Assembly (NCBI GenBank): GCA_046497465.1
Contig: JAWOFO010000042.1
Location: 64,651 to 128,650 of the forward strand
DNA: 64,000 nt
Source of the DNA: Desulfobia sp.
Lineage (GTDB): Bacteria > Desulfobacterota > Desulfobulbia > Desulfobulbales > SURF-16
Direction of reading: 5' to 3'
Shown here: positions 373 to 34,043 of the stretch, piece by piece
How the letters are laid out: each line of letters starts with the position of its first letter
How positions within the stretch are numbered: the first letter of the stretch is position 1
Position numbers and translations under genes: made by a program
The notes under the pieces: model-generated
What the model was told of the DNA's origin: nothing
The model's input: the letters and a program-made list of their open reading frames with translations, nothing else
The model's database searches: none

Positions 373-411
373 GAATGCTCAAGCCGGGAAAAAATCAGGA
401 GAATCGACTGT

Positions 412-774: not shown

Positions 775-881
775 TGAAATAAATAAAAAGTCAGAATTTA
801 CGATTGAGGGAAAATTCGACCTGAAGGTCTTATATGAGTTACCTTTAATTTTTGACTATTAATCCGTGATTATTTTTTTAC

Positions 882-1916
882 ATGCCTGAGTTGAGAAAAG
901 ATCCTGTTCTGGGACGCTGGATTATTATCGCCCAAGAGAGAGGAAAGAGACCCACTGATTTTATCGTCAGGAGAATGGCAAGCAGGGGAGGGTTTTGTCC
1001 GTTATGCCCCGGTAATGAGAAAACAACGCCTGCCGAGATCTTGAGTTACAGGAACCACAGTGGACAGTGGCAGGTCCGGGTGGTTCCCAACAAGTATCCG
1101 GCGTTGGTTATTAACGGTAATCTGGATAAGGAAGGGGAGGGTATTTATGACAGGATGAACGGGATTGGGGCCCATGAAGTCATAATTGAAACCCCTGATC
1201 ACAAGGTTGATTTTAGTAGTTTGCCTGTGGAGCAGATGGTCAGGATATTCTATGCTTATCGGGACCGGATACTCGACCTGGAAAGAGATCACAGATTTAA
1301 GTATGTAATGGTGTTTAAGAATTTCGGCCAGGAAGCAGGCGCTTCTCTGGAGCATCCCCATTCCCAGCTTATTGCCCTGCCGATCCTGCCTAGAATGATT
1401 GTCTCCGAGTTGGACGGCAGTCTTTCTCATTACAGGTATAAAGAACGTTGTATCTTCTGTGATATAATCCGCCAGGAAATAAAAGAAGATAAGAGGATAG
1501 TCTGCCGGAACAATCATTTTATTGTGATAGTCCCCTATGCTCCTCGTTTCCCTTTCGAGATGTGGATTATTCCCAGGTATCATAATTCATCCTATCAGAA
1601 TCAGGATGCAGAATCTTTCCTTTCCCTGGCAGATATCTTTTCAGAAAGCATACGCAGACTCAATGCCTGTATCCCTGAGGTCTCATATAATTTTGTTCTT
1701 CATACTGCTCCACTCAGGTCATCGCCCCTGGAATACTATCACTGGCATTTTGAGATTATGCCTAAGCTCACCACTGTTGCCGGATTTGAGTGGGGCTCAG
1801 GTTTTTATATCAATCCCATTCCTCCGGAAGATGGGGCAAGATATTTACGGGATATAGAGCTCCCTGATTACAGCCTTACTAATTCCCACTTTTCATTTGT
1901 TCAGGAGGCGGGGTAA
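882..1916 (+). CDS. galactose-1-phosphate uridylyltransferase-like nucleotidyltransferase (GalT branch of the HIT superfamily)
   Basis: 344-aa ORF with an N-terminal CPLCPGNE zinc motif and the HPHSQLIALP His-Pro-His catalytic motif. The substrate cannot be inferred from the sequence. Confidence 0.75.
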   Translation: MPELRKDPVLGRWIIIAQERGKRPTDFIVRRMASRGGFCPLCPGNEKTTPAEILSYRNHSGQWQVRVVPNKYPALVINGNLDKEGEGIYDRMNGIGAHEVIIETPDHKVDFSSLPVEQMVRIFYAYRDRILDLERDHRFKYVMVFKNFGQEAGASLEHPHSQLIALPILPRMIVSELDGSLSHYRYKERCIFCDIIRQEIKEDKRIVCRNNHFIVIVPYAPRFPFEMWIIPRYHNSSYQNQDAESFLSLADIFSESIRRLNACIPEVSYNFVLHTAPLRSSPLEYYHWHFEIMPKLTTVAGFEWGSGFYINPIPPEDGARYLRDIELPDYSLTNSHFSFVQEAG

Positions 1917-2266
1917 TGCAGAAAATTCTAATTGTTGACGATGATGAAAGTGTCCAGCTTGTGTACAGGGAAGAGTTGGAAGAAGTCGGCTATGAGGTTT
2001 ATTCTGTCTTTTCCGGAGAAGAGGCCTTGAAAAAAATAGACCTGATATCGCCTGATCTGGTTATTCTTGATATAAAAATGCCTGGTATGGATGGTATAGA
2101 CGTCCTATGTCAGATTAAGGAACGGGACTCTTCTTTACCGGTTATTCTCAGTTCCGCTTATCCGGAATTCAAGCAGGATATATCTTCCTGGGCCTCTGAC
2201 GACTATATTGTTAAATCTGCCAATCTTGATACCCTGAAGGAGTCTGTTCACAAACTGCTTTCCTGA
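1916..2266 (+). CDS. single-domain response regulator (CheY-like receiver)
   Basis: 116 aa with the receiver signature ILIVDDDES...DLVILDIKMPGMDG...KS. Its ATG overlaps the upstream stop by 1 nt (TAATG at 1914-1918). Confidence 0.85.
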   Translation: MQKILIVDDDESVQLVYREELEEVGYEVYSVFSGEEALKKIDLISPDLVILDIKMPGMDGIDVLCQIKERDSSLPVILSSAYPEFKQDISSWASDDYIVKSANLDTLKESVHKLLS

Positions 2267-2509
2267 GTCCCAATACCGGCCAGTTAATTCAACTTGGAAT
2301 TACGAATTAACAATTCAACATCTTAAGTTTATTAGTTTTTTACTTTTTAGCTGCCGAAACAATTTATTGCAACTGGTTTCCTGGTTATTCAGTACGACAA
2401 CCATCACTGTTCTCGCCTTTTTTCAACCCTGAACTTGAAACCTGGAAGATTAAACTGTCAGGTTGTAAATTGAAAAGAAAAGATCTCTGCTGATAGGCCT
2501 GTCAGAGAA

Positions 2510-3277
2510 ATGGGGCTGGAAAAGCCGTTGGTAATTAATATTATGAAAGATATCCAGAGTCAGCGGGATGAACGATTTATTAATATAAGGAAAGTTGGCG
2601 TCAAAGATATCTCCTATCCCATTACCGTCCTTGATAAGGCTAACAAGGTGCAGCATACTTTGGCCAAGGTCAACATGTATGTCAACCTACCCCACCAATT
2701 CAAGGGAATTCATATGAGTCGTTTTATTGAAGTGCTTAATCGTTTTCATGGTCGGATTAATTTCAGGAGTTTTCACGCTATCTTGAAGGAAATGGTGGAA
2801 AGGCTTCAGGCAGAAGCGGCTCATATGGAGATTGAATTTCCTTATTTCTTGAAAAAAAAAAGAATAATCAATAAACCGGAATTGATTGAATACCGCTGTT
2901 CCATGTACGGCACTCTGGATAGCAGTGATAGTCTTTCCCTGAAAATAGATGTCCCTATCTCCCCGCCAACTCCTGTCCAGATTGATTCCGGTCTGCCCGG
3001 ATCTCTTGGTCTTTGGGGTTTTGCCAGAACTAGTTTAAGTTTTCGGCATTTTATCTGGATAGAAGATATTATAGATATGGTTGAAAAGGTGACTTCTCAT
3101 GATCTGCGGTGGCCCGTTGATAAAAGAGCAGCAGCTGAGAGGTATCTTTCTGTGGAGAGCATGGCTGATTCCCTGGCCCAGAAACTGGTCACCCATCCCG
3201 ATATCTGTAAGTTTAAAGTTACTGTGGAAAATTTTGCCAGGGGTTTTACCACCTATGCCTCTATCCAGGGGCCGTGA
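2510..3277 (+). CDS. FolE2/MptA-family (GTP cyclohydrolase I type 2)-like T-fold protein, divergent
   Basis: The N-terminal half carries the family hallmark LPHQFKGIHMSRFIE. The C-terminal half aligns in pattern but lacks the CPCSK, AHNQR and ESIHxH motifs (see findings). The start could instead be the MKDIQ Met at 2543. Confidence 0.65.
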   Translation: MGLEKPLVINIMKDIQSQRDERFINIRKVGVKDISYPITVLDKANKVQHTLAKVNMYVNLPHQFKGIHMSRFIEVLNRFHGRINFRSFHAILKEMVERLQAEAAHMEIEFPYFLKKKRIINKPELIEYRCSMYGTLDSSDSLSLKIDVPISPPTPVQIDSGLPGSLGLWGFARTSLSFRHFIWIEDIIDMVEKVTSHDLRWPVDKRAAAERYLSVESMADSLAQKLVTHPDICKFKVTVENFARGFTTYASIQGP

Positions 3278-3344
3278 GGAATTAGAAATTGGAAGTGACG
3301 ACCGGTTCCATATGGTTTAGATTTATAATTCTTAATTAGCTAAT

Positions 3345-5414
3345 ATGACAGATGATTTATTGTTTGAGATAGGCACGGAAGAACTGCCTGCCGGTTATAT
3401 TCTGCCGGCCTTGGATTTTATGGAGAAGGAAATGCGGCGCAGATTAAGGGATTTGTCCCTGAATTTTCAGAGGATGAAGACAGGCGGGACACCGAGGCGT
3501 CTCATGATCTGTGTTCAAGGCCTTGATTCCAGGCAACCGGATCGCCGGGAGCAGGTAACAGGTCCTTCGCTGAAGGTGGCTTTTGATGTTGAGGGTAAAC
3601 CTACAAAGGCTGCCAAAGGTTTTGCCTCCTCCCGCGGCGGTTCAGTGGAAGATCTGCAGGTTGTCTCCACGCCCAAGGGTGAGTATGTTATGTTGATCCA
3701 GGAACTGAAAGGAAGGGATTCTATTGATCTTCTTCAGGAAGAGCTGCCCGGGCTTATCAAGGATATTCCCTTTCCGAAATCAATGCGCTGGGGGGCTAAT
3801 TCTTATAGTTTTGCCAGGCCCATTCAGTGGCTTCTTGCCCTATTTGGTCAACAAGTGATTAATTTTTCATTTAATGACTTAACAGCCTCGGACACCACAA
3901 GAGGTCACCGTTTTCTTGCTCCAGAAGAGGTTAAAGTCAAAGACTGTGATCAATATATCAGTATTCTGCGGGAGCGTGAGGTGATAGTTGATTTTTATGA
4001 ACGCCGCCAGAAGATAGAAAAAGAGGTAAAGGATGTTGTCTCCGAGGTTGGAGCAGAAGTTATAGATGACCAGGAATTGCTGGATACGGTCACCAATCTG
4101 GTGGAGATGCCGGTACCGGTTTGCGGGTCTTTTGACAGGAAATTTCTAGAATTGCCCCCTGAGGTTTTGATTAGTGCTATGCGGGAACATCAGAAGTATT
4201 TTACCGTTGTTGATCAGGCTGGCCGGATACTACCGTGGTTTATTGCGGTGAATAATACCAGGGTTAGCGGTCAGGTCAACGGCGCAGCCGGACATGAGAG
4301 AGTATTGCGGGCCAGGCTTGAGGACGCCCTTTTCTTTTATAATGAGGACAGAAAAAAGAATCTGGAGGAGCGTTTGCCTTATCTCAATGGAGTAATATTT
4401 CAGGCCCAGCTGGGATCTATGGGAGAGAAGGCCAACAGGCTGGAAGGCCTTGCGGCCTATCTGGCAGCCGGGATAGTGCCGGACCAGCAGTACGCGGTGA
4501 TACGGGCTGCCCGCCTTGCCAAAGCAGACCTGGTTACAGATTTGGTTGGTGAATTTCCCACTCTACAGGGAGTAATGGGCAAGTACTATGCCCTGGCTGA
4601 TGGTGAAGATAAGGATGTAGCCCAGGCCATTGCCGATCATTATCTGCCTGTCAGGTCTGGAGGCAGGCTCCCTGCGACCACTGCCGGGGCAGTGGTCGGT
4701 CTGGCGGATAGGTTCGATACTCTGGCAGGTTGTTTCGGTATAGGGGAGAAGCCTACCGGCACAGCGGATCCTTATGGCCTAAGGCGGCATGCCCTGGCCC
4801 TTATTCATATTATAACCGGATATAACTTGAATATTTCCCTGAAAGAATGCGCCTATAAGGCCCTTGGCCTTTATGGAGGCAAACTGAGCCTCCCGGAAGA
4901 CAGGGCGGCCGGGGACATGATCGATTTTATCAAAGGGCGTTTTGTAAATGACCTGATCAGCAGAGGTGTGTCTTCAGAGGCTGTTGAGGCTGTTACTTCG
5001 TTAGGTTTTGATAATGTTGTCTCTGCCCGGAAGCGCATAGATTCTCTTCTGGCCATAAGCACCAGGGAAGCTTTTGGCCTTCTTGCCGGTTCTTTTAAGC
5101 GTTTGATTAATATTGTCAGTGATCAGGAAGCGGGAGAAGTCGATCCTGAACTGTTCCGGGAAGAGGCCGAGAGAAATCTCTATGATAAGTATCAGTCTAT
5201 CAAAATCCAGGTAGAGCCTCTGGTTGCCAGAGAGGAATTTTTAGAAGCCATGGAGAAGATTTTAGAGATGAAAGAAGCCGTTGATTATTTTTTTGATAAG
5301 GTGATGGTTATGGCGGAGGATAAGGATTTACGCCGTAACCGTTTGACCCTGCTCGCAAGTATAGTAAGTCTGTTTCTGTTGGTCGGTGATTTTTCAAAAA
5401 TGTCATCCATCTAG
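3345..5414 (+). CDS. glyS: glycine--tRNA ligase beta subunit
   Basis: 689-aa ORF. It has the N-terminal LLFEIGTEELPAGY motif and conserved blocks (HRFLAPE, REHQKYF, FQAQLGS, DPYGLRR) typical of GlyS. Confidence 0.95.
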   Translation: MTDDLLFEIGTEELPAGYILPALDFMEKEMRRRLRDLSLNFQRMKTGGTPRRLMICVQGLDSRQPDRREQVTGPSLKVAFDVEGKPTKAAKGFASSRGGSVEDLQVVSTPKGEYVMLIQELKGRDSIDLLQEELPGLIKDIPFPKSMRWGANSYSFARPIQWLLALFGQQVINFSFNDLTASDTTRGHRFLAPEEVKVKDCDQYISILREREVIVDFYERRQKIEKEVKDVVSEVGAEVIDDQELLDTVTNLVEMPVPVCGSFDRKFLELPPEVLISAMREHQKYFTVVDQAGRILPWFIAVNNTRVSGQVNGAAGHERVLRARLEDALFFYNEDRKKNLEERLPYLNGVIFQAQLGSMGEKANRLEGLAAYLAAGIVPDQQYAVIRAARLAKADLVTDLVGEFPTLQGVMGKYYALADGEDKDVAQAIADHYLPVRSGGRLPATTAGAVVGLADRFDTLAGCFGIGEKPTGTADPYGLRRHALALIHIITGYNLNISLKECAYKALGLYGGKLSLPEDRAAGDMIDFIKGRFVNDLISRGVSSEAVEAVTSLGFDNVVSARKRIDSLLAISTREAFGLLAGSFKRLINIVSDQEAGEVDPELFREEAERNLYDKYQSIKIQVEPLVAREEFLEAMEKILEMKEAVDYFFDKVMVMAEDKDLRRNRLTLLASIVSLFLLVGDFSKMSSI

Positions 5415-5470
5415 TTTAACATAAAATGAACAGGGAGCCATATTAACTGTAATTTAATTAAAGGTGTTTA

Positions 5471-6775
5471 ATGATGAGTATGAATAAGATGGAAATCGGC
5501 TGGACTGTAACTTCAACTTATTCCGAAGCTGAAAATCTTGCCAGAGAGTGCGTTAGCAAAGGGATTGCAGCCTCTGTTCAGGTAGAGGGGCCAATTCGTT
5601 CTTTTTTTGTTTCGAACAATGAAGCTGAAGATAAAGAAGAGTACAGGCTTACCTTTCAGTTTCTTGCTTCTCAATCGGAGCAGATGGAATCATGGCTGGA
5701 GGAGAATCATCCTTATGATGTCCCGCAATGGCTGACAGTGGCAGTGGAGAATGTCCTGCCGGAATATCTGGTCTGGGTCCAGGGGGAGGAAGAGGTTGGA
5801 TCTGGTGAAATTATTGGAATGTCCCGCAGAGGTGTGGAGTTGCTGAAACAGCAGCGTTATTCCGAAGCGGAAAAGATTTTTCAGGAGGCCTTAAAAGCAG
5901 AACCGCAAAATACCTATCTCCTGGTCGGACTTGGAGATTTATACCGGGAGACCAGGAAGTTTGCCAAGTCGGTAAACTACTATCAAAAAACCCTTGATAT
6001 TGATCCTGCCAATATGTTTGCCCTTCGTGGTATCGGTGATTCCTATCGGGGGATGAATGAGCTGGACAAATCCATACCCTACTGGCAGAGATATTTGGAT
6101 TATAATCCTGATGATATTCATGTCCTTACCCGTCTCGCTGATTCCTACGTCAAGACAGGAGATTTCCGCAAAGCAGAAGAGATTTACCTCAAGTCCCTTT
6201 CCATAGACGAAAATGACAAGTATGCCTTACGAGGCACGGGTAATCTTTATTACAAGAAAAACGATAATAAAAAGGCCCTTTACTATTTTGAGAGATTTTT
6301 GGAGCTGGATGACAGTTATATTGCTGTTCTGACCATGACCGGCAATATCTATCGCCGGCGCCGGGAATACGAACAGGCTATCTACTATTACGGCAAGGCC
6401 CTGAAAAAAGAGCCTGATAACATTTTTGCCCTGTACGGAATGGGGGATGCCCAGCGAGGATTGAAGAATTACTGGGCAGCAGTGGAATACTGGCTCAAAA
6501 TCCTGGAAAAGGAACCCGAGAATCAGAATCTTCTCTCCAGAATAGGTGATGCCTTTTTTATTCTGGGAGAGATCGAGAAATCTGAATACTACTACCAGCG
6601 CAGTCTTAAAATAGATTTTGATAATTTTTCCCTACTGGGCCTTGCCCGAATATGCCGGGAAAGAAAAGACTGGTTCAAAGCCGAAGAGTATTGCCGGAAA
6701 ATACTTGATAAAGATCCCGGTAATTCCCGGGCGATTGACGAACTCCAGCAGATAAAGGAGAAAAATATATCCTGA
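5471..6775 (+). CDS. CutA1-like domain fused to a multi-TPR repeat protein
   Basis: The N-terminal ~105 aa look like CutA (AASVQVEGPIRSFF...YRLTFQF...HPYDVPQWL). The remainder is at least 9 TPR-like 34-aa repeats (AEKIFQEALKAEPQN, YYQKTLDIDPAN, and others). Confidence 0.7.
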   Translation: MMSMNKMEIGWTVTSTYSEAENLARECVSKGIAASVQVEGPIRSFFVSNNEAEDKEEYRLTFQFLASQSEQMESWLEENHPYDVPQWLTVAVENVLPEYLVWVQGEEEVGSGEIIGMSRRGVELLKQQRYSEAEKIFQEALKAEPQNTYLLVGLGDLYRETRKFAKSVNYYQKTLDIDPANMFALRGIGDSYRGMNELDKSIPYWQRYLDYNPDDIHVLTRLADSYVKTGDFRKAEEIYLKSLSIDENDKYALRGTGNLYYKKNDNKKALYYFERFLELDDSYIAVLTMTGNIYRRRREYEQAIYYYGKALKKEPDNIFALYGMGDAQRGLKNYWAAVEYWLKILEKEPENQNLLSRIGDAFFILGEIEKSEYYYQRSLKIDFDNFSLLGLARICRERKDWFKAEEYCRKILDKDPGNSRAIDELQQIKEKNIS

Positions 6776-6947: not shown

Positions 6948-8063
6948 ATGAAAAAAAAAGCACTTATAACCGGTATAACCGGTCAGGATGGGGCTTATCT
7001 GGCCGAATTTCTTCTTGGTAAGGGTTATGAAGTCCATGGCATAAAAAGACGGACCTCTCTTTTTAATACCGACCGGATAGATCATCTTTATCAGGATCCT
7101 CATGAAAAAGAACGTAATTTCATACTCCACCACGGAGATCTTACGGATTCATCCAGCCTTATTCATACGATAGAGAGGATTCAACCTGATGAACTGTACA
7201 ATCTGGCTGCCCAGTCCCATGTTGCCGTTTCATTTGAAGAGCCGGAGTACACTGCCAATTCCGATGCTCTTGGCACCCTGCGGCTGCTCGAGGCTGTCAG
7301 GATACTGGGACTTACCGGCAAGACCAGATTCTACCAGGCCTCCACTTCTGAGCTTTTCGGTAAGGCCCGGGAAACTCCCCAGACCGAAAAAACTCCCTTT
7401 TATCCCCGCTCCCCATACAGTGTAGCCAAGCTTTATTCCTACTGGATGGTCGTTAACTATCGCGAGGCTTACGGTATTTACGCCTGTAACGGTATACTTT
7501 TTAATCATGAGTCTCCGATCAGAGGTGAGACTTTTGTAACCAGGAAAATAACCAGGGGGCTGGCCAGGATTTTTCTAGGGCTCCAGGATTGTTTATATCT
7601 GGGTAATCTGGATGCCAAAAGAGACTGGGGTCATGCCCGTGATTATGTGGAGATGCAGTGGCTCATGCTTCAGCAGGATGAACCGGTGGATTATGTTATA
7701 GCCACTGGTGAGCAGCATTCAGTCCAGGATTTCCTGGGAGCTGCAGCAGGAGAACTGGGAATCAGTTTAAGCTGGCAGGGGTCAGGTATAAACAAGATTG
7801 CTGTGGTGGAAGACGTTAGCAGTGAAGAGACCGGTGTTAAAAAAGGACAGGTCGTTGTCCGGATTGATCCCCGTTATTTTCGGCCTACCGAAGTTGAATC
7901 ACTACTGGGTGATGCAACCAGGGCCGAGAGAGAGCTGGGCTGGCGGCCCAGGACAACCTTCCCGGAGCTGGTCAGGGAAATGGTTTTCTCTGATCTGGAA
8001 GATGCCAAACGGGATGCGCTTTGTAAAAAAAGGGGGTATAAGATTTTTGACTATCATGAATAA
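6948..8063 (+). CDS. gmd: GDP-mannose 4,6-dehydratase
   Basis: 371 aa. It has the [19 protein letters not shown] Rossmann motif, the catalytic SPYSVAKLY motif, and [17 protein letters not shown], all characteristic of Gmd. Confidence 0.95.
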
Positions 8064-8921: not shown

Positions 8922-10075
8922 GTTTCATCCCCCTCCATGGCAAGACCGGTTATTCCGGTGGTCTCTTCCCCCTTGGCCGATTTTATACTGTCCAGGCCCC
9001 GGTTCAGTACCGACCGGCGTGAGCAGTAGCCCAGGGCTGTTTCTTCAGTGATCACCCCATCCTTGAAGAGCTGGAGGATGTACTGGTCAAAGGTGGTCAT
9101 TCCCAGTCCCTTGCTGTCGGCGATTATGTTATAGAAAGTCTTATCAGTGGTTTCTCCGTTTATCACTACTTCCTTGATACGCAGGTTCATCTGCATGATT
9201 TCAAAGGCAGCCACCCTTTCGCCATTGACTTTGGGCAATAAACGCTGGGAAACCACCCACTTCAGAGTATCGGCAACCCGGTTCCTGATCTGCTGCTGTT
9301 CTTCGTAGTTGAACATGCCTATGCAGCGATTGATGGTGGTTCCGGCATCCATGGTGTGCAGGGTGCTGAGCACCAGGTGACCGGTTTCGGCGGCGGTAAG
9401 TCCTATTTCCATGGTTTCGCGGTCCCTCATCTCTCCGACCAGTATGACCTTGGGAGCCTGCCGAAGCGCGGCCCTGAGACCGCCTGCAAAAGAGTCAAAA
9501 TCGTTGCCCAGTTCCCGTTGATTGAAGGTCGCCTTTTTATGGGAGTGAACAAACTCTATTGGATCTTCTAGGGTTACAATATGGATGGGGCGTTCCTGGT
9601 TGATTTTTTCCAGCAGGGCGGCAAGAGTGGTTGATTTACCGGTACCCGTGGCCCCGGTCACCATAATTATGCCGTTAAGCTCCCCGGCCATGTTATTTAT
9701 AACTTCGGGGAGGTTAAGTTCGTCAATGGTCGGGATCTTGGTGGGTAATTGTCTGAGGACCGTACTCAGATTCTTCTTTTGTGAAAAGATGTTTACCCTG
9801 AAACGGGCTTTGTCTCCCAGCCAGTAGGACAGGTCACAGGAGCCGTGTTGGACAAGATCGTCCAGAAGCCTTTTGTTGCCGTTTATAAGGTTGAGGGCGA
9901 AAACTTCCGCCTGAAAAGGCGTCAGCTTTGGCACTTCAGGTTTGATGGAGACCGGCTTGAGTTGGCCTGCTGTTTCTATCTGAAGAGGCTGACCAGTAGT
10001 TAAAATAAGATCTGATGCATTTTCATGGCTGGCCAGCATTGATTTTATCCAGTAATCGGTTTCCGGTTGTCTCAT
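8918..10075 (-). CDS. pilT: type IV pilus retraction ATPase, PilT/PilU family
   Basis: 385 aa. It has the Walker A motif GATGTGKSTT, Asp box/Walker B motifs (ILVGEMRD), the His box (GHLVLSTLHT) and a PilT-type C-terminal region. Confidence 0.9.
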   Translation of the reverse strand: MRQPETDYWIKSMLASHENASDLILTTGQPLQIETAGQLKPVSIKPEVPKLTPFQAEVFALNLINGNKRLLDDLVQHGSCDLSYWLGDKARFRVNIFSQKKNLSTVLRQLPTKIPTIDELNLPEVINNMAGELNGIIMVTGATGTGKSTTLAALLEKINQERPIHIVTLEDPIEFVHSHKKATFNQRELGNDFDSFAGGLRAALRQAPKVILVGEMRDRETMEIGLTAAETGHLVLSTLHTMDAGTTINRCIGMFNYEEQQQIRNRVADTLKWVVSQRLLPKVNGERVAAFEIMQMNLRIKEVVINGETTDKTFYNIIADSKGLGMTTFDQYILQLFKDGVITEETALGYCSRRSVLNRGLDSIKSAKGEETTGITGLAMEGDET

Positions 10076-26370: not shown

Positions 26371-27006
26371 TTAGGATGGCGGGACCTTTTTCTTTCTCCA
26401 GAGAGCGATCCCGGCCAGCCCGCCGCCCAGAAGGGTAACAGTTGCCGGCTCGGGGATGACATCGACCGAGGCGTTATTAACGGCATCGAAAGTCAGAGGG
26501 TCTCCCCGGGCATCGCCGAGTGCAATTACTGAAATATCCAGGGGGCTGGTTCCCAGGGCCAGGGCAGTAAAGGTCAGGGTGGCCAGGGTGAAGCTGGGAG
26601 CTTGGTTATTTATTAATATGTTGGGCTCATCGATTGAAATTTCATAGAAGTTGACAACATCATTTGTGCTGGCGTCGTAATCCCAGAAAATACCTTGGTC
26701 ATTAAAAGGTTCAGTATCAGCGAAATTCAATGAATTCGAAAAATCCACCTGGTCTCCTCGGTCCGGATCCCCAAAGCTGATACTGTCAAAATAAAGAATC
26801 AAGTCATCGTAATCCACATCCAGGTCAAAGGCGCTGAGGGAAGGCGCCACCCCGTCCCCGAGCCCGGAAATACTGAGGGCGGCATCTACGGTGCCGCCTT
26901 TTGGCACTTCCTGGAACAACGGATCTATACTGAGCATCAGGGCCTGTACCGGTAAGGCCCAGCAGCTTACTAGAACAAATATGAGGAGATTAAGATTTTT
27001 TTTCAT
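26371..27006 (-). CDS. cohesin-like secreted protein with C-terminal PEP-CTERM sorting signal
   Basis: 211 aa with signal peptide MKKNLNLLIFVLVSCWALPVQA. The beta-sandwich region follows a cohesin-like pattern (GGTVDAALSISGL...LSAFDLDVDYDDLILYFDSISFG...FTLATLTFTALALGTSPLDIS). The C-terminus VIPEPATVTLLGGGLAGIALWRKKK gives a PEP motif, a TM helix and a basic tail. The gene lies 36 nt downstream of the giant gene, with GGGAGGA before its ATG. Confidence 0.8.
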   Translation of the reverse strand: MKKNLNLLIFVLVSCWALPVQALMLSIDPLFQEVPKGGTVDAALSISGLGDGVAPSLSAFDLDVDYDDLILYFDSISFGDPDRGDQVDFSNSLNFADTEPFNDQGIFWDYDASTNDVVNFYEISIDEPNILINNQAPSFTLATLTFTALALGTSPLDISVIALGDARGDPLTFDAVNNASVDVIPEPATVTLLGGGLAGIALWRKKKVPPS

Positions 27007-27042: not shown

Positions 27043-30000
27043 TTAGAACGGGTCTCCGGGAATAATATCCGCCCGGCCCTGTGCCCCCGTACTGTCGGTT
27101 ACGGTCAGGGTCAGCAGGTTGATATCTTCAGGAATACAGGCCCCGCTCCAGATCATGACAAAATCATTACCCAGGTAGCTGATCCCCAGACTGGAATTTT
27201 CTATAAGCTGGACAATCTCCGGATCATCACCCAGACTGAAAGAGTAAGGTTCAGTACCGCCCTCTATATCAAAGCCGGTCTCAAAGTAACACCTGTTTAC
27301 CACCTGAGTCGGAGGGGAGAGGGTGAGACCCTCTTCGGCATTGAGGATAAACCGGTATTCCACAGCCCGGCTGACCTCGGAGCGCAGCATAAGGGTACAG
27401 GTCCCTCCCTCCGGGGTCCCGACAGAGGCAAAGCCGCCCGAACCCTCCGCCAGCTGGACCTGATCGGGATCGAAAAGAAAGGCCCTGACTGCCGAGGCGG
27501 TCTCGTCTATCACCACCCCGTCTTCCGTCTCATCAACGTCCAGGGCTACCGGGTCTCCAGTACAGACCCAGGCAAAAACGTCTTCATCTCCCTCCTGTTC
27601 CAGGTTTCCGTTTACCATCTCCCCCAGGTCAATCGGCCTTGGTGCCCCCTGTCCCGAGATGTCGAACTGGATTTCCGGACTCAGGGGATCGTTGCTTTCA
27701 ATCGTCACCGTACCCTGGTAAATCCCGGTCGATCCCGGCTGGAAATCAACACTTATGATCCGGTCATCCCCTTCGGGTTCGATCTGAAAAGGGGTAGGGG
27801 GGACAGTAACAGTGAATACGCTGTCACCGCTGTAGGAAATACTGTTTACCTGCAGGGTTGCCTCGCCGGTATTGCCGATAGAGACGCTCCCGGAGCCACC
27901 TGCACCACAGGGGACTTCTCCGAAATCCAGGGAAGAAGGGGTCAGAGATATGGAGGAGGTTATGCCGTTGCCGGAGAGGGAGCCGTTGAACACCGGGGTA
28001 TCAGGGTCGTTGGATGCAATGGCAACGCTTCCGTATACGGGATCGGTACTTGAAGGAGTAAAAGTTACTGTCAGGCTGCAGGTCCCGGACGGAGCAAGCG
28101 TCCCGGTACAGTCAGAAGCGGCAGTCTCGAATTCGGAGGCCCCGGCTAAGGAGATATCGGTGATCTCGAGGTCGGCATCGCCGCTGTTTTTGATTATCAT
28201 ATCCTGTTCCTGAGAAGTGCCAAGGGGTACGTCGATAAAGACCAGGTTTCCGCCGATAACCACTAGGTCCGGTTCCAGCGCCGCCAGGCCGTTGCCGGAG
28301 AGGGCAATAATGATCGAAGGATCATCCGGATCATTGGAGGTTATGCCAAGTTCGGCTGAGGCCGGGCCGGTCACCGTGGGAGAGAATACCGTGCTGATCG
28401 TACAGTCGCTTGCAGCCGGAAGAACCCCGGGACAGTTATCAAGGTGGTAAATGTCTGCCGAGCCCGAAGTCGAGATCCCGGTTATATCAAGATCTGCATT
28501 GCCGGTGTTTGACAGGGTAACGGGTTGATTTGCGGTATAGCCGATATTGATATCCCCGAAATCGACAGCCGCCGGTGCCACGGATATGTCAGGTTTCAGG
28601 AAAGAGATATCCCTGGTTGCGGATTCGCCCCGGGCATCTGTCACCCTTAAACGGAGCAGGGCGATATCCTGCGGTATACAGCCGTTGATCCGGAGCACTG
28701 CCTGGTCGTTGTTTTCGTACTCCACCTCAAAGCCTTCCGGGGGATAGTCCTGGTAAGGTGAACATATCACCGGCTCGGTTTGATAACAGCCACTCCAGCT
28801 GAACTGGTATGGTTTAAGCCCGCCGTATGCCTTGAAAGTTTTTTCACTTTCACAGAAGGGCAGTACCGCCTCCTCGGGACTGATAGCCAGAGGCCAGTAT
28901 TCGGCGGAACCTTGGTAAAAGATGTGGAGCATTCCGGAATAGCTCCGGCGGTTTTGCAGGGTCGGATCCGAGGGTTCCGGGGCATCGGCAACAGGATCGA
29001 TTATAAGCATGTCATCCCCTAGAAAAGGATTCAGGTCTCCGGCGCCGATAAAGACGCCGAATCCCGGTCTTGAAATCCCGGCTTTGGCTTGCGGACCTGT
29101 GAACAGGTAATCCAGGCCGTCTTCAAGGGCCGTTCCCGGATTATCGGTATAATCAATCTCCCCGGAGTACCACCGCCGGTTCTCCAGATGGATCAAATCT
29201 CCTCCCTCACTGTCTTCCCATAAGGGGGATTCACTGCCGTAGAGCACCCAGACGTGTCCCGGCAGATTTGCTCCGCCCCTGCCGGAAGGGGCTCCCACCA
29301 GTAAATCGTTAAAACCGTCATTGTTCAGATCTCCGGAAGACAGGGAGTAGCCGAATCTGCATATCGATCTTGAGCCGCTGATGAGTACGTCTTTTATGCC
29401 TTCGACGTTTACCAGGCCGTCAAGTTGGGTACTGTTTCCGTCGATCAGGTATACCCGTCCCACCCCGGTTTCATTTATCTCAACCCTGCTCTGGATCTCA
29501 GGGTCCTTGATCATGGAATGATACATCTCCAGTTCGAGTTTTGCAGAGGGCGCCCCGACAACTATCTCGCCTCTGCCGTCCCGGTTCAGATCAACTATGC
29601 CGGTAGAAGCTGCAAATCCCGTTCTCTCATCTTCGCTCCAGATCCTGGGGCCCTCGATGAGGACATCCTGATTTCCCTCAGAAAGCGGGCCGGCGTAGAG
29701 ATATCCCCGCAGCATTGAATCACCGTAAAAGATATAGGCTGCTCCCTGACGCAGAGACAGTTCAGCCCCGGCCGGGACTCTGCCATAGTCCGGTGCCCCT
29801 ATGAGCAGGTCGTCATGGCCGTCCCCGTTGATATCTTCCATTGCCAGTGATTTCCCCAGCCCGTCGCCTTTGTACTGCACGTATTCACCGGTCTGAAAGT
29901 CGATAATATCAGTCTGGTAGACATTCTGTCCCTCTATGACAGCGCGGTAGGGACGGAACAAGTATAAGTCGTCCGGGATCTTCACGTCTTTGGGCATGGA

Positions 30001-33000
30001 AACGTAACCGGGATGGAAGATGTAGGCCCGGGCCACCAGTTGATTTACGGAGTCAGGATCCACCGGATCAGTGGGTGCGGTAATTACCAGGTCACCGCCG
30101 AAGCCGTAGATGTTGCCGATTGCCACCTGGTAGCCCAGTTCCCGCTCATCGTCGCTGTAAAACATCACATCATAATTACCCTGGCCCACATTATAAGCTG
30201 ACTGCCATTCCTCCCTACCGTAAAAGAGATAGGCTTTTCCGGGCAGATGACCCGGGTAGTCTACCTGATTGATCTCTATATTCGGCCGGTGAAGACCGGA
30301 CTCGTCCTGGTCGGTTGTGCCGATAAGGAGATCATCAACACCGTCCCCGTTGATATCGCCCAGGGCCAGGGAGTTTCCGAGACGCCTGCTGTTGCCCCCG
30401 GTATGGATATCGCCGCTGTCCCCTGTGATCTTTACATCCCAGGCCGGGGTGACGGTGGAGAGATCAACAGTATCCACAACCCTGCTGCCGTAAAGCTCCC
30501 CGATTCCTTCCACAGGACCGAAGGCGATATAAACCGCCCCGATGGCATAACCCAGATTACGATACTCGGGCATCCCGATCACCAGGTCGTTTATACCGTC
30601 ACCATTGAGGTCACCTATGGCAGCGCTCCTCAGATAAGTGTACCGGTCTCCAAAGGCCAGCAAATCCTGGTCGTCGGCGCTGGTAAAACCCGCGGATTCA
30701 TAGGGAAGAATCCTGATTCCGTTCTGATCGCAGTTGTTGCTCTGACAGGGAAGATTCGCACCTACCTTCAGGGTTGCCCCGAAATCAGTACCATCGTAAG
30801 CCAGGCCGTCCTGGTGGAACTCCGGAATCTCGAAGGCGTACCAGTCATATCTGGTATGTTTTTTCACCCAGGTGTCCGCCGGCTGGATTTCGAAAAGCCG
30901 GTTGCCGTAAGAAAGAGTCAGGTCGCTGTCAGCCGCATAAGGGGTCAGATAGTTGCCCGATATATACAGGGTGTCCCCGGGATACATGGATGGATTTCTG
31001 AGGTTTAGGGTGGCATCCAGATCCGGACTGGGAGGTATAAAGACGGGAGGGCTTTCCCGGTAGTTGGCAGGATAGGCGGCGGACTCGTCCCTAACCCTAA
31101 TGGAAAGCCAGCCCGGCTTGTGTCCCCAGTAATATCCATATTTGGTGCAGGAATCAGTCCGTGGATTCCCGCAGTAATCCGGTGCTCCGTTCCAGAGGAG
31201 AAGAGGGAGGCCGGAGCGGGCACTGAACCCCCTGCCCTCGACGATCAGATCGTACCTGTCCCGCCAGCATCCAATCCAGATATCTTCCACTACATTATAT
31301 GTGCAGAACTCGTCCCAGTAAGTGGTGGGTTCCCAGTTCCAGTCTTCTACAATCGGGACCTCAATAACCTCGACCGGGAAATAGGGAGGATAATCGGTTC
31401 CCCATTCCAGGCATTCGTCATCGACCAGATTCTCGCATCTGGTCTTTGACGGATACTGGTAGTCCCCGCACTCCGCCTGAATATCGAACTCGGCCGTGCC
31501 GGTGAACAAGCCGGCATTAACGGTGTGGGTCTCGTGAACAGCGCCGGCATCTTCTATGGTCAGGAAGTCCGAGGGCTCGGTGGTTTCCAGGGTTGACGGC
31601 ACTCCCACATCCAGCATGGTAACGTGGATTTCATCTATATCCAGGAGATCAACGGCAAAGGCCACTACAAAGTCCCCCAGAACATCCTCGAGAAAGGACT
31701 CCAGATCCACTCCTGCTATTTGTTTTATGATGGAGAAGAGACCGAACGGATCAGGGATATCTATTGCCAGGTCTCCGTGTTCTATCAGTTCCGTGAAACC
31801 GGCATTGGTAAAGTTGGCGTAGAGACTTAATTCGTTGCTCGTATCAGTATAGAAGATATGGTTGCTGATCCCTTCAAAAGGCCCTGAAGCAGCGACCTTC
31901 CACTCACTGGGAAAGGTAGGGACTCCGGCCTGGAGGACGTCTGCCACCAGGTCTATTACCGAAGTGATGGCCTCGATTATTCCGTCAATAGCATCAACGG
32001 TTGCAATAAGCTCGGTAATAAAGGGGATGGCCGCGCAGCAGGGTACACAGCCGAAGAAGCAGGAGATCGAATTTCCGGCTAGAGACACGTACAGGATAAC
32101 CCTGGTTGAATCCAGGATTTCGTCTATTGTTTCAAAGGGGTCTGCTATGTCATTAAGAATGTCTACGACTTCACTGACATTACAGACGGCCTCACCGTCT
32201 GGAGAATGACTCAGTATTTCGTTTATCAGTTCGAATTTCTGCTTTATAAGTAAAAAGGCTTCACTCCCGAAGACGGCGTCGAGATTTGCCTTTACTTCAT
32301 CGCTGGGAATAGAGTCCACTCTGTCCCTTAAGGTTTCCACGAAATTCATGGTCCCGGCCATGTTTTCTTCCAGCAGGGCCCACTTCTCCGGAGGTATGTT
32401 CGGCTTTGTCAAGTGCTCCAGTTTAGCGAAGACTCTCTGCAGCTGGGTGACCAGCAGGTCCAACTGGTAGTCCACCTCGTTGCCTTTCAGGTCCGGAGTA
32501 GGATCCTGGGCGGGCATCACCTGAAAACCGAGGGAATTGGATATACTTTGTTCATCGTATACATATACCTGCAGACTCTCCTCGCTTTTCAGGAAGATGA
32601 AGGGGACCATGACCTTAAGGTAATTTTCCGTTGCCTCCAGCACTACTCCCTTACTACCGTATTCATCCCCCTGGAAATAGGCCTCCATTACCTGCCGGTC
32701 AGGAGTGAAGCCGGAGCCGGTAACGGTTATGATGGTCCCTGTCTGACCGGACGGCGGTGAAATATCATCCAGGAACAGGGCCGGTACCGGATTATAATTG
32801 ACGGCAAATTTAGCAGGCGGGCTCTGTACTCCGTTGATCAGCACAGAAACCTCAAAATCGTTTAAGCCGGCAGTGAGCTTTACTGATTTTTCAAAATAGC
32901 CGTTCTCATTGACTGTCTCTACAGTTTCACCGGTAGTAGTATTGCTGATAACAACTGTTCCGCCTGGTACTGAAACACCCTTAAGCGTAATGGTCTCGTT

Positions 33001-33240
33001 GTCTGTCACCTTTGGTGGAGGTGCCAGCAACGGCTTGCCCAACACGGTTATAACTGTGCTGTCTTCAGGGCTTGTCATGTTTTTGTTGTCGGTTACCACC
33101 AGTGAAAAATTAAAAACCCCCTGCTTCAAAGAAACAGAGGGTGTGATCACATCCTCCGGGTCAGGGGAACCCGACCAGGTATAGTTACTGATTGTGCCGT
33201 CCGGATCACGGGAAGAGCTGCCGTCAAGCTGGATATCCAT
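27043..33240 (-). CDS. giant secreted multidomain surface protein (PKD, IPT/TIG, unknown ~600-aa region, 7-blade FG-GAP propeller, 3 choice-of-anchor-D/ASH-like repeats, He_PIG-like and PPC-like modules); main uninterrupted ORF
   Basis: This is a 2065-codon ORF counted from its first in-frame ATG. Motifs read from the translation follow.
- PKD-like: DGSSSRDPDGTISNYTW.
- IPT/TIG-like: ISPPSGQTGTIITVTGSGFT (32704-32763).
- Seven Ca-binding FG-GAP blades between ~28990 and 30620: GDLNGDGINDLVIG, GDINGDGVDDLLIG, GFGGDLVITAP, EDINGDGHDDLLIGAP (29791-29838), VDLNRDGRGEIVVGAP (29548-29595), GDLNNDGFNDLLVGAP, GDLNPFLGDDMLII.
- Three ~100-aa repeats each ending ...SNDP...SGNG/SGQG (~27650-28595).
- Two G.(K/E)PY.FS...VTD..G modules.
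The true N-terminus lies upstream (see the next feature). Confidence 0.9.
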   Translation of the reverse strand: MDIQLDGSSSRDPDGTISNYTWSGSPDPEDVITPSVSLKQGVFNFSLVVTDNKNMTSPEDSTVITVLGKPLLAPPPKVTDNETITLKGVSVPGGTVVISNTTTGETVETVNENGYFEKSVKLTAGLNDFEVSVLINGVQSPPAKFAVNYNPVPALFLDDISPPSGQTGTIITVTGSGFTPDRQVMEAYFQGDEYGSKGVVLEATENYLKVMVPFIFLKSEESLQVYVYDEQSISNSLGFQVMPAQDPTPDLKGNEVDYQLDLLVTQLQRVFAKLEHLTKPNIPPEKWALLEENMAGTMNFVETLRDRVDSIPSDEVKANLDAVFGSEAFLLIKQKFELINEILSHSPDGEAVCNVSEVVDILNDIADPFETIDEILDSTRVILYVSLAGNSISCFFGCVPCCAAIPFITELIATVDAIDGIIEAITSVIDLVADVLQAGVPTFPSEWKVAASGPFEGISNHIFYTDTSNELSLYANFTNAGFTELIEHGDLAIDIPDPFGLFSIIKQIAGVDLESFLEDVLGDFVVAFAVDLLDIDEIHVTMLDVGVPSTLETTEPSDFLTIEDAGAVHETHTVNAGLFTGTAEFDIQAECGDYQYPSKTRCENLVDDECLEWGTDYPPYFPVEVIEVPIVEDWNWEPTTYWDEFCTYNVVEDIWIGCWRDRYDLIVEGRGFSARSGLPLLLWNGAPDYCGNPRTDSCTKYGYYWGHKPGWLSIRVRDESAAYPANYRESPPVFIPPSPDLDATLNLRNPSMYPGDTLYISGNYLTPYAADSDLTLSYGNRLFEIQPADTWVKKHTRYDWYAFEIPEFHQDGLAYDGTDFGATLKVGANLPCQSNNCDQNGIRILPYESAGFTSADDQDLLAFGDRYTYLRSAAIGDLNGDGINDLVIGMPEYRNLGYAIGAVYIAFGPVEGIGELYGSRVVDTVDLSTVTPAWDVKITGDSGDIHTGGNSRRLGNSLALGDINGDGVDDLLIGTTDQDESGLHRPNIEINQVDYPGHLPGKAYLFYGREEWQSAYNVGQGNYDVMFYSDDERELGYQVAIGNIYGFGGDLVITAPTDPVDPDSVNQLVARAYIFHPGYVSMPKDVKIPDDLYLFRPYRAVIEGQNVYQTDIIDFQTGEYVQYKGDGLGKSLAMEDINGDGHDDLLIGAPDYGRVPAGAELSLRQGAAYIFYGDSMLRGYLYAGPLSEGNQDVLIEGPRIWSEDERTGFAASTGIVDLNRDGRGEIVVGAPSAKLELEMYHSMIKDPEIQSRVEINETGVGRVYLIDGNSTQLDGLVNVEGIKDVLISGSRSICRFGYSLSSGDLNNDGFNDLLVGAPSGRGGANLPGHVWVLYGSESPLWEDSEGGDLIHLENRRWYSGEIDYTDNPGTALEDGLDYLFTGPQAKAGISRPGFGVFIGAGDLNPFLGDDMLIIDPVADAPEPSDPTLQNRRSYSGMLHIFYQGSAEYWPLAISPEEAVLPFCESEKTFKAYGGLKPYQFSWSGCYQTEPVICSPYQDYPPEGFEVEYENNDQAVLRINGCIPQDIALLRLRVTDARGESATRDISFLKPDISVAPAAVDFGDINIGYTANQPVTLSNTGNADLDITGISTSGSADIYHLDNCPGVLPAASDCTISTVFSPTVTGPASAELGITSNDPDDPSIIIALSGNGLAALEPDLVVIGGNLVFIDVPLGTSQEQDMIIKNSGDADLEITDISLAGASEFETAASDCTGTLAPSGTCSLTVTFTPSSTDPVYGSVAIASNDPDTPVFNGSLSGNGITSSISLTPSSLDFGEVPCGAGGSGSVSIGNTGEATLQVNSISYSGDSVFTVTVPPTPFQIEPEGDDRIISVDFQPGSTGIYQGTVTIESNDPLSPEIQFDISGQGAPRPIDLGEMVNGNLEQEGDEDVFAWVCTGDPVALDVDETEDGVVIDETASAVRAFLFDPDQVQLAEGSGGFASVGTPEGGTCTLMLRSEVSRAVEYRFILNAEEGLTLSPPTQVVNRCYFETGFDIEGGTEPYSFSLGDDPEIVQLIENSSLGISYLGNDFVMIWSGACIPEDINLLTLTVTDSTGAQGRADIIPGDPF

Positions 33241-33620
33241 TGCAGTCTCTCCCTCCGGAAGGACAATGGTTCTGTCATTACCCGCATCCGCTACAGGTGG
33301 CTGGTTCTCGGACTCGACGATTTCACACCTGGGAAGGTCACACCGGAGGATAAGCTTTCTGGCGTCAAGGACGGTGATTGTACCGTCACCGTCTATATCA
33401 CAGTCTGGATTACTTGTTGCAGGCTGGTTCCTGTAAGAAAGGAGAATATTCAGGTCGTTTCTGTCTACGTCTCCGTCACCGTCGATATCTCCGGTGAGGG
33501 CCTGGGCCGGATTAACTCCAAGAAAGAGCCATATTATGAGGGAAAAAAGAGTTAAGGTACCGCTGTGAATCCAAGACCTTTTTTTGCAGTCCTGCTTTGA
33601 TAACGAACGATCTTTGACAT
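33241..33620 (-). other. upstream extension of the giant gene: ATG plus signal-peptide n-region (frame A), then h/c-region and a two-repeat dockerin-type module (main frame)
   Basis: The main frame stays open for 150 codons above the first ATG; the upstream stop is at 33691-33693. That stretch has no ATG, GTG or TTG. It encodes ...KKRSWIHSGTLTLFSLIIWLFLGVNPAQA|LTGDIDGDGDVDRNDLNILL (33439-33492) ... CDIDGDGTITVLDARKLIL (33346-33402). An ATG at 33620, with GGGGTGA upstream, opens MSKIVRYQSRTAKK in the other frame. That frame terminates at 33552-33554. Confidence 0.7.
33579..33585 (-). repeat. A7 homopolymer (T7 on + strand) = A AAA AAA G slippery site linking the two frames of the giant gene
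   Basis: In the frame of the 33620 ATG the sequence reads gca aaa aaa ggt. A -1 slip, or one extra A, reads aaa aaa agg tct tgg, which is the main ORF frame. Confidence 0.6.
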
Positions 33621-34043
33621 GACTATCACCCCGAGAAATATTGACATTAAAAAAAAACAGTCCAATCAGCCCCGAAATTACATAATCACTTTATTTATAT
33701 TTTCCTTGTCATTAGTTTACCAAAATGAGATTTTACCAGGCAACTAATATTGTACTTTTGGGCAAGAATTTTTTTATTTTGCTTGGAGGATTAATTCTGT
33801 ATTTTCAGTAATTTGTATTTTAACAGTATTTTTATCCCAGGTTCAGAATTTTCTGATCTCGAAAGGATAAAATCAAAGAGTTAGAAATCTGCCCTGATTA
33901 TATCATGATATCGAAACTAATATACTGGGATTATGGATAAGATGATGGAAGATCAACACAACGTGCAAAAGAACCGCTCATCAAACACGAAGCCGTTCCT
34001 GAATGGCTATACCAAACGTAAAGTCGAGTTCTGAATTTATCTG

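What the first reader, a model, noticed from the sequence alone, without database searches (positions are those of the whole stretch)
33552..33620. Giant gene's only canonical start codon is out of frame and joined through an A7 slippery run (A AAA AAA G)
Seen directly: the main ORF is open for 150 codons above its first ATG (33240), yet that stretch contains no ATG, GTG or TTG. It nevertheless encodes a signal-peptide h/c-region and the dockerin module.

An ATG at 33620, with GGGGTGA 5 nt upstream, opens MSKIVRYQSRTAKK in the other frame and would stop at 33552-33554. The two frames meet at an A7 run (33579-33585). The start frame reads gca aaa aaa ggt. A -1 slip, or one additional A, reads aaa aaa agg tct tgg….

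The joined product MSKIVRYQSRTAKKRSWIHSGTLTLFSLIIWLFLGVNPAQA|LTGD is a complete n-h-c signal peptide. Possible readings are: (i) a homopolymer sequencing or assembly error; (ii) a phase-variable ON/OFF switch by slipped-strand mispairing; (iii) programmed -1 ribosomal frameshifting or transcriptional slippage, since A AAA AAG-type heptamers are the dnaX paradigm. Readings (ii) and (iii) would put expression of a surface giant under a stochastic or translational gate.
Basis: seen in the sequence. Interest (0 to 1): 0.75.

Follow-up and report, generated by a model that had tools for sequence, protein, structure and literature searches.

The report
One-base frameshift allele of giant adhesin
In this Desulfobia genome a run of seven A's, one short of the eight found in a near-identical genome, separates a giant surface protein gene from its start codon and export signal, which is most likely an ordinary on/off or loss-of-function mutation at a slippery run and not a programmed recoding device.

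Summary
On the minus strand, a Shine-Dalgarno site and the ATG at 33620 open a 22-codon frame. That frame meets the 2180-codon main frame at an A7 run (33579-33585). No canonical start lies in the main frame for 150 codons above ATG 33240.

The window is a Desulfobia sp. MAG (Desulfobulbaceae). NCBI annotates the gene as a truncated 2065-aa protein.

Three other assemblies, more than 99.8% identical, cover the tract. Two have A7. The tract is the only indel among these assemblies.

Thirty other A/T runs of 7-10 in the window lie in intact ORFs, so a systematic homopolymer error is unlikely. The joined N-terminus aligns across the junction with the in-frame N-terminus of a 43%-identical homologue. 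Six homologues examined start normally.

No stimulatory RNA structure follows the run. A7 is below the length needed for efficient transcriptional slippage (about 9) and below the usual poly-A phase-variation cut-off (10).

Best reading: a genuine A7/A8 DNA polymorphism in which the window carries the OFF or null allele. Whether it switches reversibly is unresolved. Programmed frameshifting is unlikely, about 0.1. Interest is low to moderate.

The parts
33626..33632 (-). Shine-Dalgarno-like GGGGTGA, ending 5 nt upstream of the ATG at 33620
   Evidence: Read directly from the sequence. It is identical in L001, L002 and L003.
33618..33620 (-). Native start codon (ATG) of the giant gene
   Evidence: In L001 (A8) the gene is called from this ATG and translates to the full signal peptide plus dockerin. 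M1, K3 and A12 of this frame align with the in-frame N-terminus of homologue P0037.
33552..33620 (-). Zero-frame short ORF of the A7 allele: 22 codons, MSKIVRYQSRTAKKGLGFTAVP, then TAA
   Evidence: Translation. After the tract, its sequence does not match the homologue, whose N-terminus aligns with the main-frame reading.
33579..33585 (-). A7 homopolymer tract, the site of the 1-nt length polymorphism. It is A7 in the window, L002 and L003, and A8 in L001.
   Evidence: Alignment. It is the only indel in 4.5-7.5 kb of pairwise comparison apart from the N-filled scaffold gaps.
33499..33579 (-). Main-frame part of the signal peptide (RSWIHSGTLTLFSLIIWLFLGVNPAQA), which has no start codon of its own in the A7 allele
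   Evidence: R15 and W17 align with P0037.
33349..33492 (-). Dockerin type I module
   Evidence: Pfam PF00404, residues 32-79 of the open frame, just below the curated cut-off (21.6 bits against 22.9 bits). It is strongly conserved with P0037.
33238..33240 (-). Internal ATG used by the NCBI annotation (MFO7761380.1, 2065 aa). It lies inside the PKD domain.
   Evidence: Searches show the annotated protein is identical to this ORF. One search places the PKD domain at residues 101-181, and this ATG is residue 116.
27043..33585 (-). Main reading frame of the giant surface protein: dockerin, PKD, TIG, FG-GAP repeats and ASH/HYDIN-type Ig domains. It is 2180 codons with no internal stop.
26371..27006 (-). 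Downstream PEP-CTERM protein gene, a conserved neighbour of the giant gene. It has an A8 run directly after its ATG.
   Evidence: Pfam PF07589. A PEP-CTERM gene sits in the same position in homologous locus L008. The run at 26996-27003 is listed.

Best explanation
The A-tract carries a genuine 1-nt length polymorphism at the DNA level within one Desulfobia species.

The A8 allele is the intact gene. In it, the Shine-Dalgarno site, ATG 33620, a roughly 41-residue signal peptide, the dockerin and the 2192-aa surface protein are all in one frame.

The window carries the A7 allele. Here ribosomes starting at ATG 33620 terminate after 22 codons, and the 2180-codon body has no start codon or signal peptide of its own. 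The gene is therefore OFF or null, apart from a sub-percent leak by spontaneous -1 slippage on A_AAA_AAA or by RNA polymerase stuttering.

The mutation is of the kind made by replication slippage on a homopolymer (inferred). The lysine-rich n-region of the signal peptide, encoded by AAA codons, creates the tract.

The data do not settle whether the tract flips back and forth often enough to count as phase variation, or whether A7 is simply a segregating loss-of-function allele. I lean slightly towards a low-rate, phase-variation-like switch.

Shown: the two alleles, their reading frames and the lack of recoding signals. Inferred: the direction of the mutation (A8 ancestral), the OFF phenotype and the slippage origin.
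For: - **Allele distribution.** A7 occurs in the window, in L002 (GCA_041686435.1) and in L003 (GCA_051748965.1). A8 occurs in L001/L006 (GCA_964425565.1). All are 99.85-99.95% identical to the window, and the tract is the only true indel. L003 carries a distinct SNP haplotype, so A7 is not private to one assembly.
- **The A8 allele is intact as far as it can be read.** L001 translates from the same ATG into MSKIVRYQSRTAKKRSWIHSG...AQALTGD... and stays open for 559 codons to the contig end.
- **No systematic homopolymer error in the window.** Thirty A/T runs of 7-10 lie in intact ORFs. Only this gene shows a long start-less open stretch. The A10 at 2852 is identical in an independent Logan assembly.
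- **The in-frame reading looks ancestral.** The joined N-terminus aligns end to end with the in-frame N-terminus of homologue P0037 across the tract (A12 | R15, W17). Homologues L013, L014, L015, L017, L019 and L020 have ordinary in-frame ATG plus signal peptide.
- **The ORF is not decayed.** There is no stop in 2180 codons. The three SNPs inside the ORF among A7 genomes are all synonymous.
- **ATG 33240 is not a natural start.** It lies inside the PKD domain.
- **Literature.** AAAAAAA runs are prone to indel mutation and to slippage (PMC4066793).
Against: - Only four assemblies cover the tract, and their sample relationships and sequencing platforms are unknown.
- The single A8 comes from a fragmented scaffold with N gaps nearby. 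It could itself be an error, in which case A7 would be fixed in the species.
- A7/A8 is shorter than the tracts accepted as phase-variable (poly-A/T of 10 or more, PMC6321876).
- No within-sample read heterogeneity could be examined.
- A7 is the majority state (3 of 4), and three synonymous SNPs hint at continuing constraint. Both facts are also what a recoding model would predict.
Confidence: 0.6

Rival explanations
1. Technical artefact. One of the two tract lengths is a sequencing, assembly or polishing error. Either the true sequence is A8 everywhere and the gene is a plain ORF, or it is A7 everywhere and the A8 in L001 is the error.
For: Homopolymer length is the classic error class. The A8 contig is a scaffold piece flanked by N runs. 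The window could not be traced to reads, and its own assembly is not indexed.
Against: A7 is reproduced in three assemblies that differ by SNPs. All other homopolymers compared, including A9, T9 and A10, agree in length between assemblies. Thirty runs of 7-10 in the window do not break any ORF. The one discordant tract is the one whose +1 change restores the frame, which random error would hit only rarely.
Confidence: 0.15
2. Programmed recoding. The A7 allele is the working form. A fixed fraction of ribosomes slip -1 on A_AAA_AAA, or RNA polymerase adds an A, so the giant protein is made at a deliberately low level.
For: - A_AAA_AAA is a canonical X_XXY_YYZ heptamer in the correct phase, and IS elements use it (PMC4066793).
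- A7 is the majority state.
- The ORF is intact, and the three SNPs among A7 genomes are synonymous.
- A second family member (L018/L021) also has its Shine-Dalgarno site, ATG and signal-peptide start in frame 0 and its body in frame -1, with G_GGT_TTT at the junction. This arrangement is shared by two metagenomes about 98% identical to each other.
Against: - No downstream hairpin or pseudoknot is predicted. The 121-nt fold is no more stable than shuffles (z = +1.0), and the run sits in a hairpin loop.
- There is no strong upstream Shine-Dalgarno-like stimulator.
- Rfam finds nothing.
- Without stimulators, heptamers give only up to about 10 times a 0.055% background in E. coli (PMC4066793).
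- Efficient transcriptional slippage needs about 9 A/T (PMC5009743).
- An in-frame A8 allele exists in a near-identical strain.
- Six homologues start in frame.
- The zero-frame product is a 22-residue peptide, and its sequence after the tract does not match the homologue, which aligns with the main-frame reading.
- An A8-to-A7 deletion automatically creates this heptamer in phase, so its presence carries no weight.
Confidence: 0.1
3. Alternative initiation. The protein is made without any frameshift, either from a non-canonical start in the main frame (ATT 33639, as NCBI called it for L003) or from the internal ATG 33240 (as NCBI called it for this genome).
For: The main frame is open from 33690. 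P0032 is annotated from the ATT. GGAGGGAGAG lies 6 nt upstream of ATG 33240.
Against: ATT 33639 has no Shine-Dalgarno site upstream; the only one lies downstream of it and is spaced for ATG 33620. The residues conserved with P0037 upstream of the tract are in the ATG 33620 frame, not in the main frame. ATG 33240 truncates the PKD domain and removes the signal peptide and dockerin from an extracellular-type protein.
Confidence: 0.04

Closest known systems
Phase-variable (contingency) genes driven by simple-sequence repeats, such as the poly-G/C tracts in Campylobacter, Neisseria and Haemophilus surface-structure genes
   Same: A homopolymer lies in the 5' coding region of a surface-protein gene. 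A one-unit length change toggles the reading frame. The tract length differs between near-identical genomes.
   Different: The tract is poly-A of only 7-8, below the poly-A/T cut-off of 10 or more used for phase-variable tracts (PMC6321876). The organism is a free-living sulfur-cycle Desulfobulbaceae, not a host-adapted pathogen. Neither the switching rate nor reversibility is known.
'Savior' indel with low-level compensatory frameshifting, as in the G7 run of herpesvirus thymidine kinase (reviewed in PMC5009743)
   Same: A 1-nt indel in a 7-base homopolymer inactivates the gene, while the run itself allows a very low level of frame-restoring slippage.
   Different: Here there is no evidence that a residual product matters, or that the indel is selected.
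dnaX / IS3-family programmed -1 ribosomal frameshifting (A_AAA_AAG or A_AAA_AAA plus stimulators)
   Same: An X_XXY_YYZ heptamer made of A's is in the right phase, and the long product is in the -1 frame.
   Different: There is no stimulatory structure or Shine-Dalgarno-like element. The arrangement is not conserved. An in-frame allele exists. The site is at codon 13-14, so the zero-frame product is a 22-residue peptive with no conserved sequence after the tract.
Transcriptional slippage on A/T runs (Thermus dnaX, Shigella mxiE, Buchnera and Blochmannia poly-A genes)
   Same: A poly-A run in the sense strand, where one added A restores the frame.
   Different: The known productive cases use runs of 9 or more (PMC5009743). 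This run is 7.

Membership tests
SSR-mediated phase-variable (contingency) locus | Repeat tract long enough to be hypermutable (poly-G/C of 7 or more, poly-A/T of 10 or more, in PhasomeIt) | tested here: not met
   The tract is A7 in the window and A8 in L001. The cut-offs are quoted from PMC6321876.
SSR-mediated phase-variable (contingency) locus | The tract lies in the 5' ORF or promoter, so a one-unit change switches expression | tested here: met
   The tract is at codons 12-15. A7 stops after 22 codons, whereas the A8 allele of L001 reads on in frame for 559 codons to its contig end, and adding one A to the window sequence gives 2192 aa.
SSR-mediated phase-variable (contingency) locus | Tract length varies among closely related genomes or within populations | tested here: met
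   Three assemblies have A7 and one has A8, at more than 99.8% identity. It is the only indel. The sample is small, and within-sample heterogeneity was not testable.
SSR-mediated phase-variable (contingency) locus | High-frequency, reversible switching | not testable with these tools
   This needs read pile-ups or culture experiments.
Programmed -1 ribosomal frameshifting (dnaX / IS3 type) | Slippery heptamer X_XXY_YYZ in the zero frame | tested here: met
   The sequence gcA AAA AAA ggt is in the ATG 33620 frame. An A8-to-A7 deletion creates this automatically.
Programmed -1 ribosomal frameshifting (dnaX / IS3 type) | Stimulatory element: a downstream hairpin or pseudoknot, or an upstream Shine-Dalgarno-like site | tested here: not met
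   The fold of 33480-33600 has z = +1.0 against shuffles, with no helix 5-9 nt downstream of the run. Only AGGA lies upstream. There is no Rfam match.
Programmed -1 ribosomal frameshifting (dnaX / IS3 type) | The two-frame arrangement and slippery site are conserved in orthologues | tested here: not met
   An A8 in-frame allele exists in L001. P0037, L013, L014, L015, L017 and L019 start in frame. One other lineage (L018/L021) has a -1 offset at a different heptamer.
Productive transcriptional slippage | Run of about 9 or more A or T | tested here: not met
   The run is 7. The threshold is from PMC5009743.
Sequencing or assembly homopolymer error | Not reproducible in independent assemblies, with other long homopolymers also disturbed | tested here: not met
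   A7 is reproduced in L002 and L003. Thirty other runs of 7-10 are in frame. The A10 is identical in L007.
Decaying pseudogene | Further disabling mutations and relaxed constraint downstream of the frameshift | tested here: inconclusive
   There is no stop in 2180 codons, and 3 of 3 SNPs among A7 genomes are synonymous. However, the genomes are more than 99.8% identical, so there has been too little time for decay to show.

The most novel reading that the evidence does not exclude
The giant PEP-CTERM-linked adhesins of this family may be deliberately gated by a -1 frame offset inside the signal-peptide coding region. Under this reading, the A_AAA_AAA site in Desulfobia and the G_GGT_TTT site in the L018/L021 lineage are independent instances. 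Ribosomal or transcriptional slippage would set a very low, stochastic level of a costly 2000+ residue surface protein, and the A8 allele would be a constitutive variant.
Probability: 0.07. Interest if true: 0.65.

Novelty: new member of a known kind. Interest (0 to 1): 0.3.

Why it matters
For annotation, the deposited protein (2065 aa from an internal ATG, or an ATT start in a sister MAG) is a truncated or forced call. It hides a frameshift, the signal peptide and the dockerin, and the gene should be flagged as frameshifted or variable.

For biology, it shows strain-level presence and absence of a giant dockerin/FG-GAP surface protein in an uncultured sulfur-cycling Desulfobulbaceae. The difference is produced by a single-base change in a lysine-codon run of the signal peptide.

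If the tract switches reversibly, it would be an example of contingency-type variation outside host-associated bacteria. If not, it is an ordinary loss-of-function allele.

Tried and rejected
- **Genome-collection scan with the N-terminal protein.** The GDIDGDGD dockerin pattern swamped it.
- **Exact DNA pattern around the tract in JGI metagenomes.** No hits.
- **Protein searches with the 174-aa and 44-aa N-terminus.** These returned only dockerin look-alikes or nothing. The word index missed even the known orthologue.
- **Exact-product look-ups of the 2065-aa and 2198-aa ORFs and of three neighbouring genes.** None is on record, so no further assemblies covering the tract could be obtained.
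- **P0036 locus.** Both contigs end at the gene end, so it says nothing about frameshifts.
- **Simple sigma-70 promoter and terminator scan, and a repeat scan, of the upstream intergenic region.** Nothing useful on the minus strand.
- **pN/pS between L018 and L021.** Only 15 differences, giving 0.49, which is inconclusive.
- **Idea that giant genes of this family are generally broken at homopolymers.** Rejected. Five of six long family loci are in a single frame.

Full report
**1. The observation**

- GGGGTGA (33632-33626) ends 5 nt upstream of ATG 33620.
- That frame gives MSKIVRYQSRTAKKGLGFTAVP and stops at TAA 33554-33552.
- The A7 run occupies 33585-33579.
- The long frame is open from the stop at 33693 down to 27043. 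Above ATG 33240 it contains no ATG, GTG or TTG.
- Inserting one A joins the frames into a 2192-aa product that begins MSKIVRYQSRTAKKRSWIHSGTLTLFSLIIWLFLGVNPAQA|LTGD.

Among 50 long ORFs in the window, this is the only one with a long start-less open stretch: 150 codons, against at most 31 for the rest.

Pfam finds a dockerin (residues 32-79, just below its cut-off), PKD (101-181), TIG, FG-GAP repeats and ASH/HYDIN-type Ig domains. ATG 33240 is residue 116 and therefore sits inside the PKD domain.

**2. Where the window comes from and how it is annotated**

The ORF from ATG 33240 is 100% identical to NCBI protein MFO7761380.1, a 'choice-of-anchor D domain-containing protein' from a Desulfobia sp. 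MAG, on a 146,676-bp contig. Candidatus Desulfobia belongs to the Desulfobulbaceae.

The deposited annotation therefore hides the frameshift behind a truncated gene call. In a sister MAG (L003) the same gene was called from ATT 33639 (P0032).

**3. The key result: the tract length differs between near-identical genomes**

Looking up the upstream MFS transporter gene fetched four other contigs. Three of them cover the tract.

| Assembly | Tract | Differences from the window |
|---|---|---|
| L002 (GCA_041686435.1) | A7 | 3 SNPs |
| L003 (GCA_051748965.1) | A7 | 7 SNPs |
| L001/L006 (GCA_964425565.1) | A8 | 5 SNPs plus the extra A |

All are 99.85-99.95% identical to the window. Apart from the N-filled scaffold gaps in L006, the extra A is the only indel in 4.5-7.5 kb.

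It stays open for 559 codons to the contig end.

**4. Is A7 a technical error?**

This is unlikely for the window.

- The window has 42 A/T runs of 7 or more, as expected from composition (41 +/- 6). Thirty of them, including two A10, one A9 and several A8, lie inside intact ORFs.
- An independent Logan assembly (L007) matches window 1-6550 with one SNP and no indel, including the A10 at 2852.
- A7 recurs on a different SNP haplotype in L003.

The weaker link is the single A8. It comes from a fragmented scaffold, so I keep an artefact reading, in either direction, at about 0.15.

**5. Which reading is ancestral or functional?**

The joined N-terminus aligns end to end with the in-frame N-terminus of P0037, a 43%-identical homologue from another species. 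Conserved residues lie on both sides of the tract: M1, K3 and A12 upstream, and R15 and W17 downstream. The alignment then runs through a strongly conserved dockerin.

A family scan of JGI metagenomes recovered further members. L013, L014, L015, L017, L019 and L020 have ordinary in-frame ATG plus signal-peptide starts. Five of the six long loci are in a single frame. The in-frame, A8-type arrangement is therefore the family norm.

**6. Tests for programmed recoding**

- The heptamer A_AAA_AAA is in phase, but an A8-to-A7 deletion produces that automatically.
- Folding 33480-33600 gives no helix 5-9 nt downstream of the run. The fold is no more stable than shuffles (z = +1.0), and the run lies in the loop of a weak 7-bp hairpin.
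- Rfam has no match.
- In E. coli, heptamers without stimulators give at most about ten times a 0.055% background, and AAAAAAA is avoided in genes because of slippage and indels (PMC4066793).
- Efficient RNA polymerase slippage is described for runs of 9 A/T (PMC5009743).
- The zero-frame product is a 22-residue peptide.

Any read-through on A7 is therefore expected to be a sub-percent leak. That is the 'indel plus low-level compensatory frameshifting' situation described for the herpesvirus TK G7 run (PMC5009743), not a programmed device.

**7. Phase variation or a plain null allele?**

In favour of a contingency-type switch:
- the tract is in the 5' ORF;
- the gene encodes a surface protein;
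- tract length varies between strains and is the only indel among them;
- the 6.5-kb ORF has no stop;
- the three SNPs among A7 genomes inside the ORF are all synonymous, suggesting the ORF has recently been under selection.

Against it:
- A7/A8 is below the poly-A/T cut-off of 10 or more used for phase-variable tracts (PMC6321876);
- the sample is four assemblies;
- no read-level heterogeneity could be examined.

I therefore commit to 'real A7/A8 DNA polymorphism, with the window carrying the OFF or null allele' at 0.6, and I leave reversibility open.

**8. Things seen in the family**

- In the P0037 locus (L008) the giant gene is split into 638-aa and 1809-aa pieces at a G9 run (L008 9791-9799), with a +1 offset. 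The three assemblies showing this may derive from one sample.
- In L018 and L021, from two metagenomes about 98% identical to each other, a strong Shine-Dalgarno site, ATG (L018 9558) and the start of the signal peptide are in frame 0, while the body is in frame -1.
  - A canonical G_GGT_TTT heptamer sits at 9608-9614 and would join them into a good signal peptide.
  - No stable downstream structure is predicted (z = +0.4).
  - pN/pS is uninformative, at 0.49 on 15 differences.
- These cases keep a small probability alive, about 0.07, that frame offsets in the signal-peptide region are used rather than suffered in this family.

**9. Verdict**

This is a new example of a well-known kind of event.

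Its main practical value is to correct the annotation and to flag a strain-variable giant adhesin. Interest is 0.3.

Noticed in passing
L008 9791-9799 (also L009, L010, L020): The 43%-identical homologue of the giant gene, in another species, is split into 638-aa and 1809-aa ORFs by a +1 frame offset at a G9 run. That tract is long enough to count as phase-variable by the usual criteria. The three assemblies that show it may derive from one sample.
   Followed up: partly
L018 9558-9614; L021 3579-3635: Another family member has its Shine-Dalgarno site, ATG and the n/h-region of its signal peptide in frame 0 and the 6.7-kb body in frame -1. A canonical G_GGT_TTT heptamer lies at the junction. 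The arrangement is shared by two metagenomes about 98% identical to each other. No downstream structure is predicted, and pN/pS is inconclusive.
   Followed up: partly
window 33657-33684: Six of the seven SNPs that separate L003 from the window over 4.5 kb cluster in 28 bp of the 5' untranslated or promoter region of the giant gene. They include the 5' edge of the T9 run (minus strand), which becomes T8 without a change in total length.
   Followed up: no
window 6948-6959 (+) and 26996-27006 (-): Two other genes begin ATG followed directly by A9 or A8 (MKKK... starts). One of them is the PEP-CTERM gene immediately downstream of the giant gene. They are in frame here but would be equally exposed to single-base indels.
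   Followed up: no
window 33720-33993: Other assemblies break in the intergenic region upstream of the giant gene. L006 has two N10 gaps, at about 33954-33993 and about 33720, and the Logan contig L004 ends at 33986. This suggests strain variation or low coverage there.
   Followed up: no
window 27043-33639; L003 2172: The public annotations are inconsistent. The same gene is called from internal ATG 33240 (2065 aa, MFO7761380.1) in this genome and from a non-canonical ATT (33639 equivalent; P0032, MGM0682193.1) in a sister MAG. Neither is flagged as frameshifted.
   Followed up: yes
L018 about 9410-9432: A G10 run lies about 130 nt upstream of the L018 giant-gene start. The ungapped comparison of L018 with L021 falls out of register upstream of about L018 9422, next to this run, so an indel probably lies at or near it, in a possible promoter region. 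This was not resolved.
   Followed up: no
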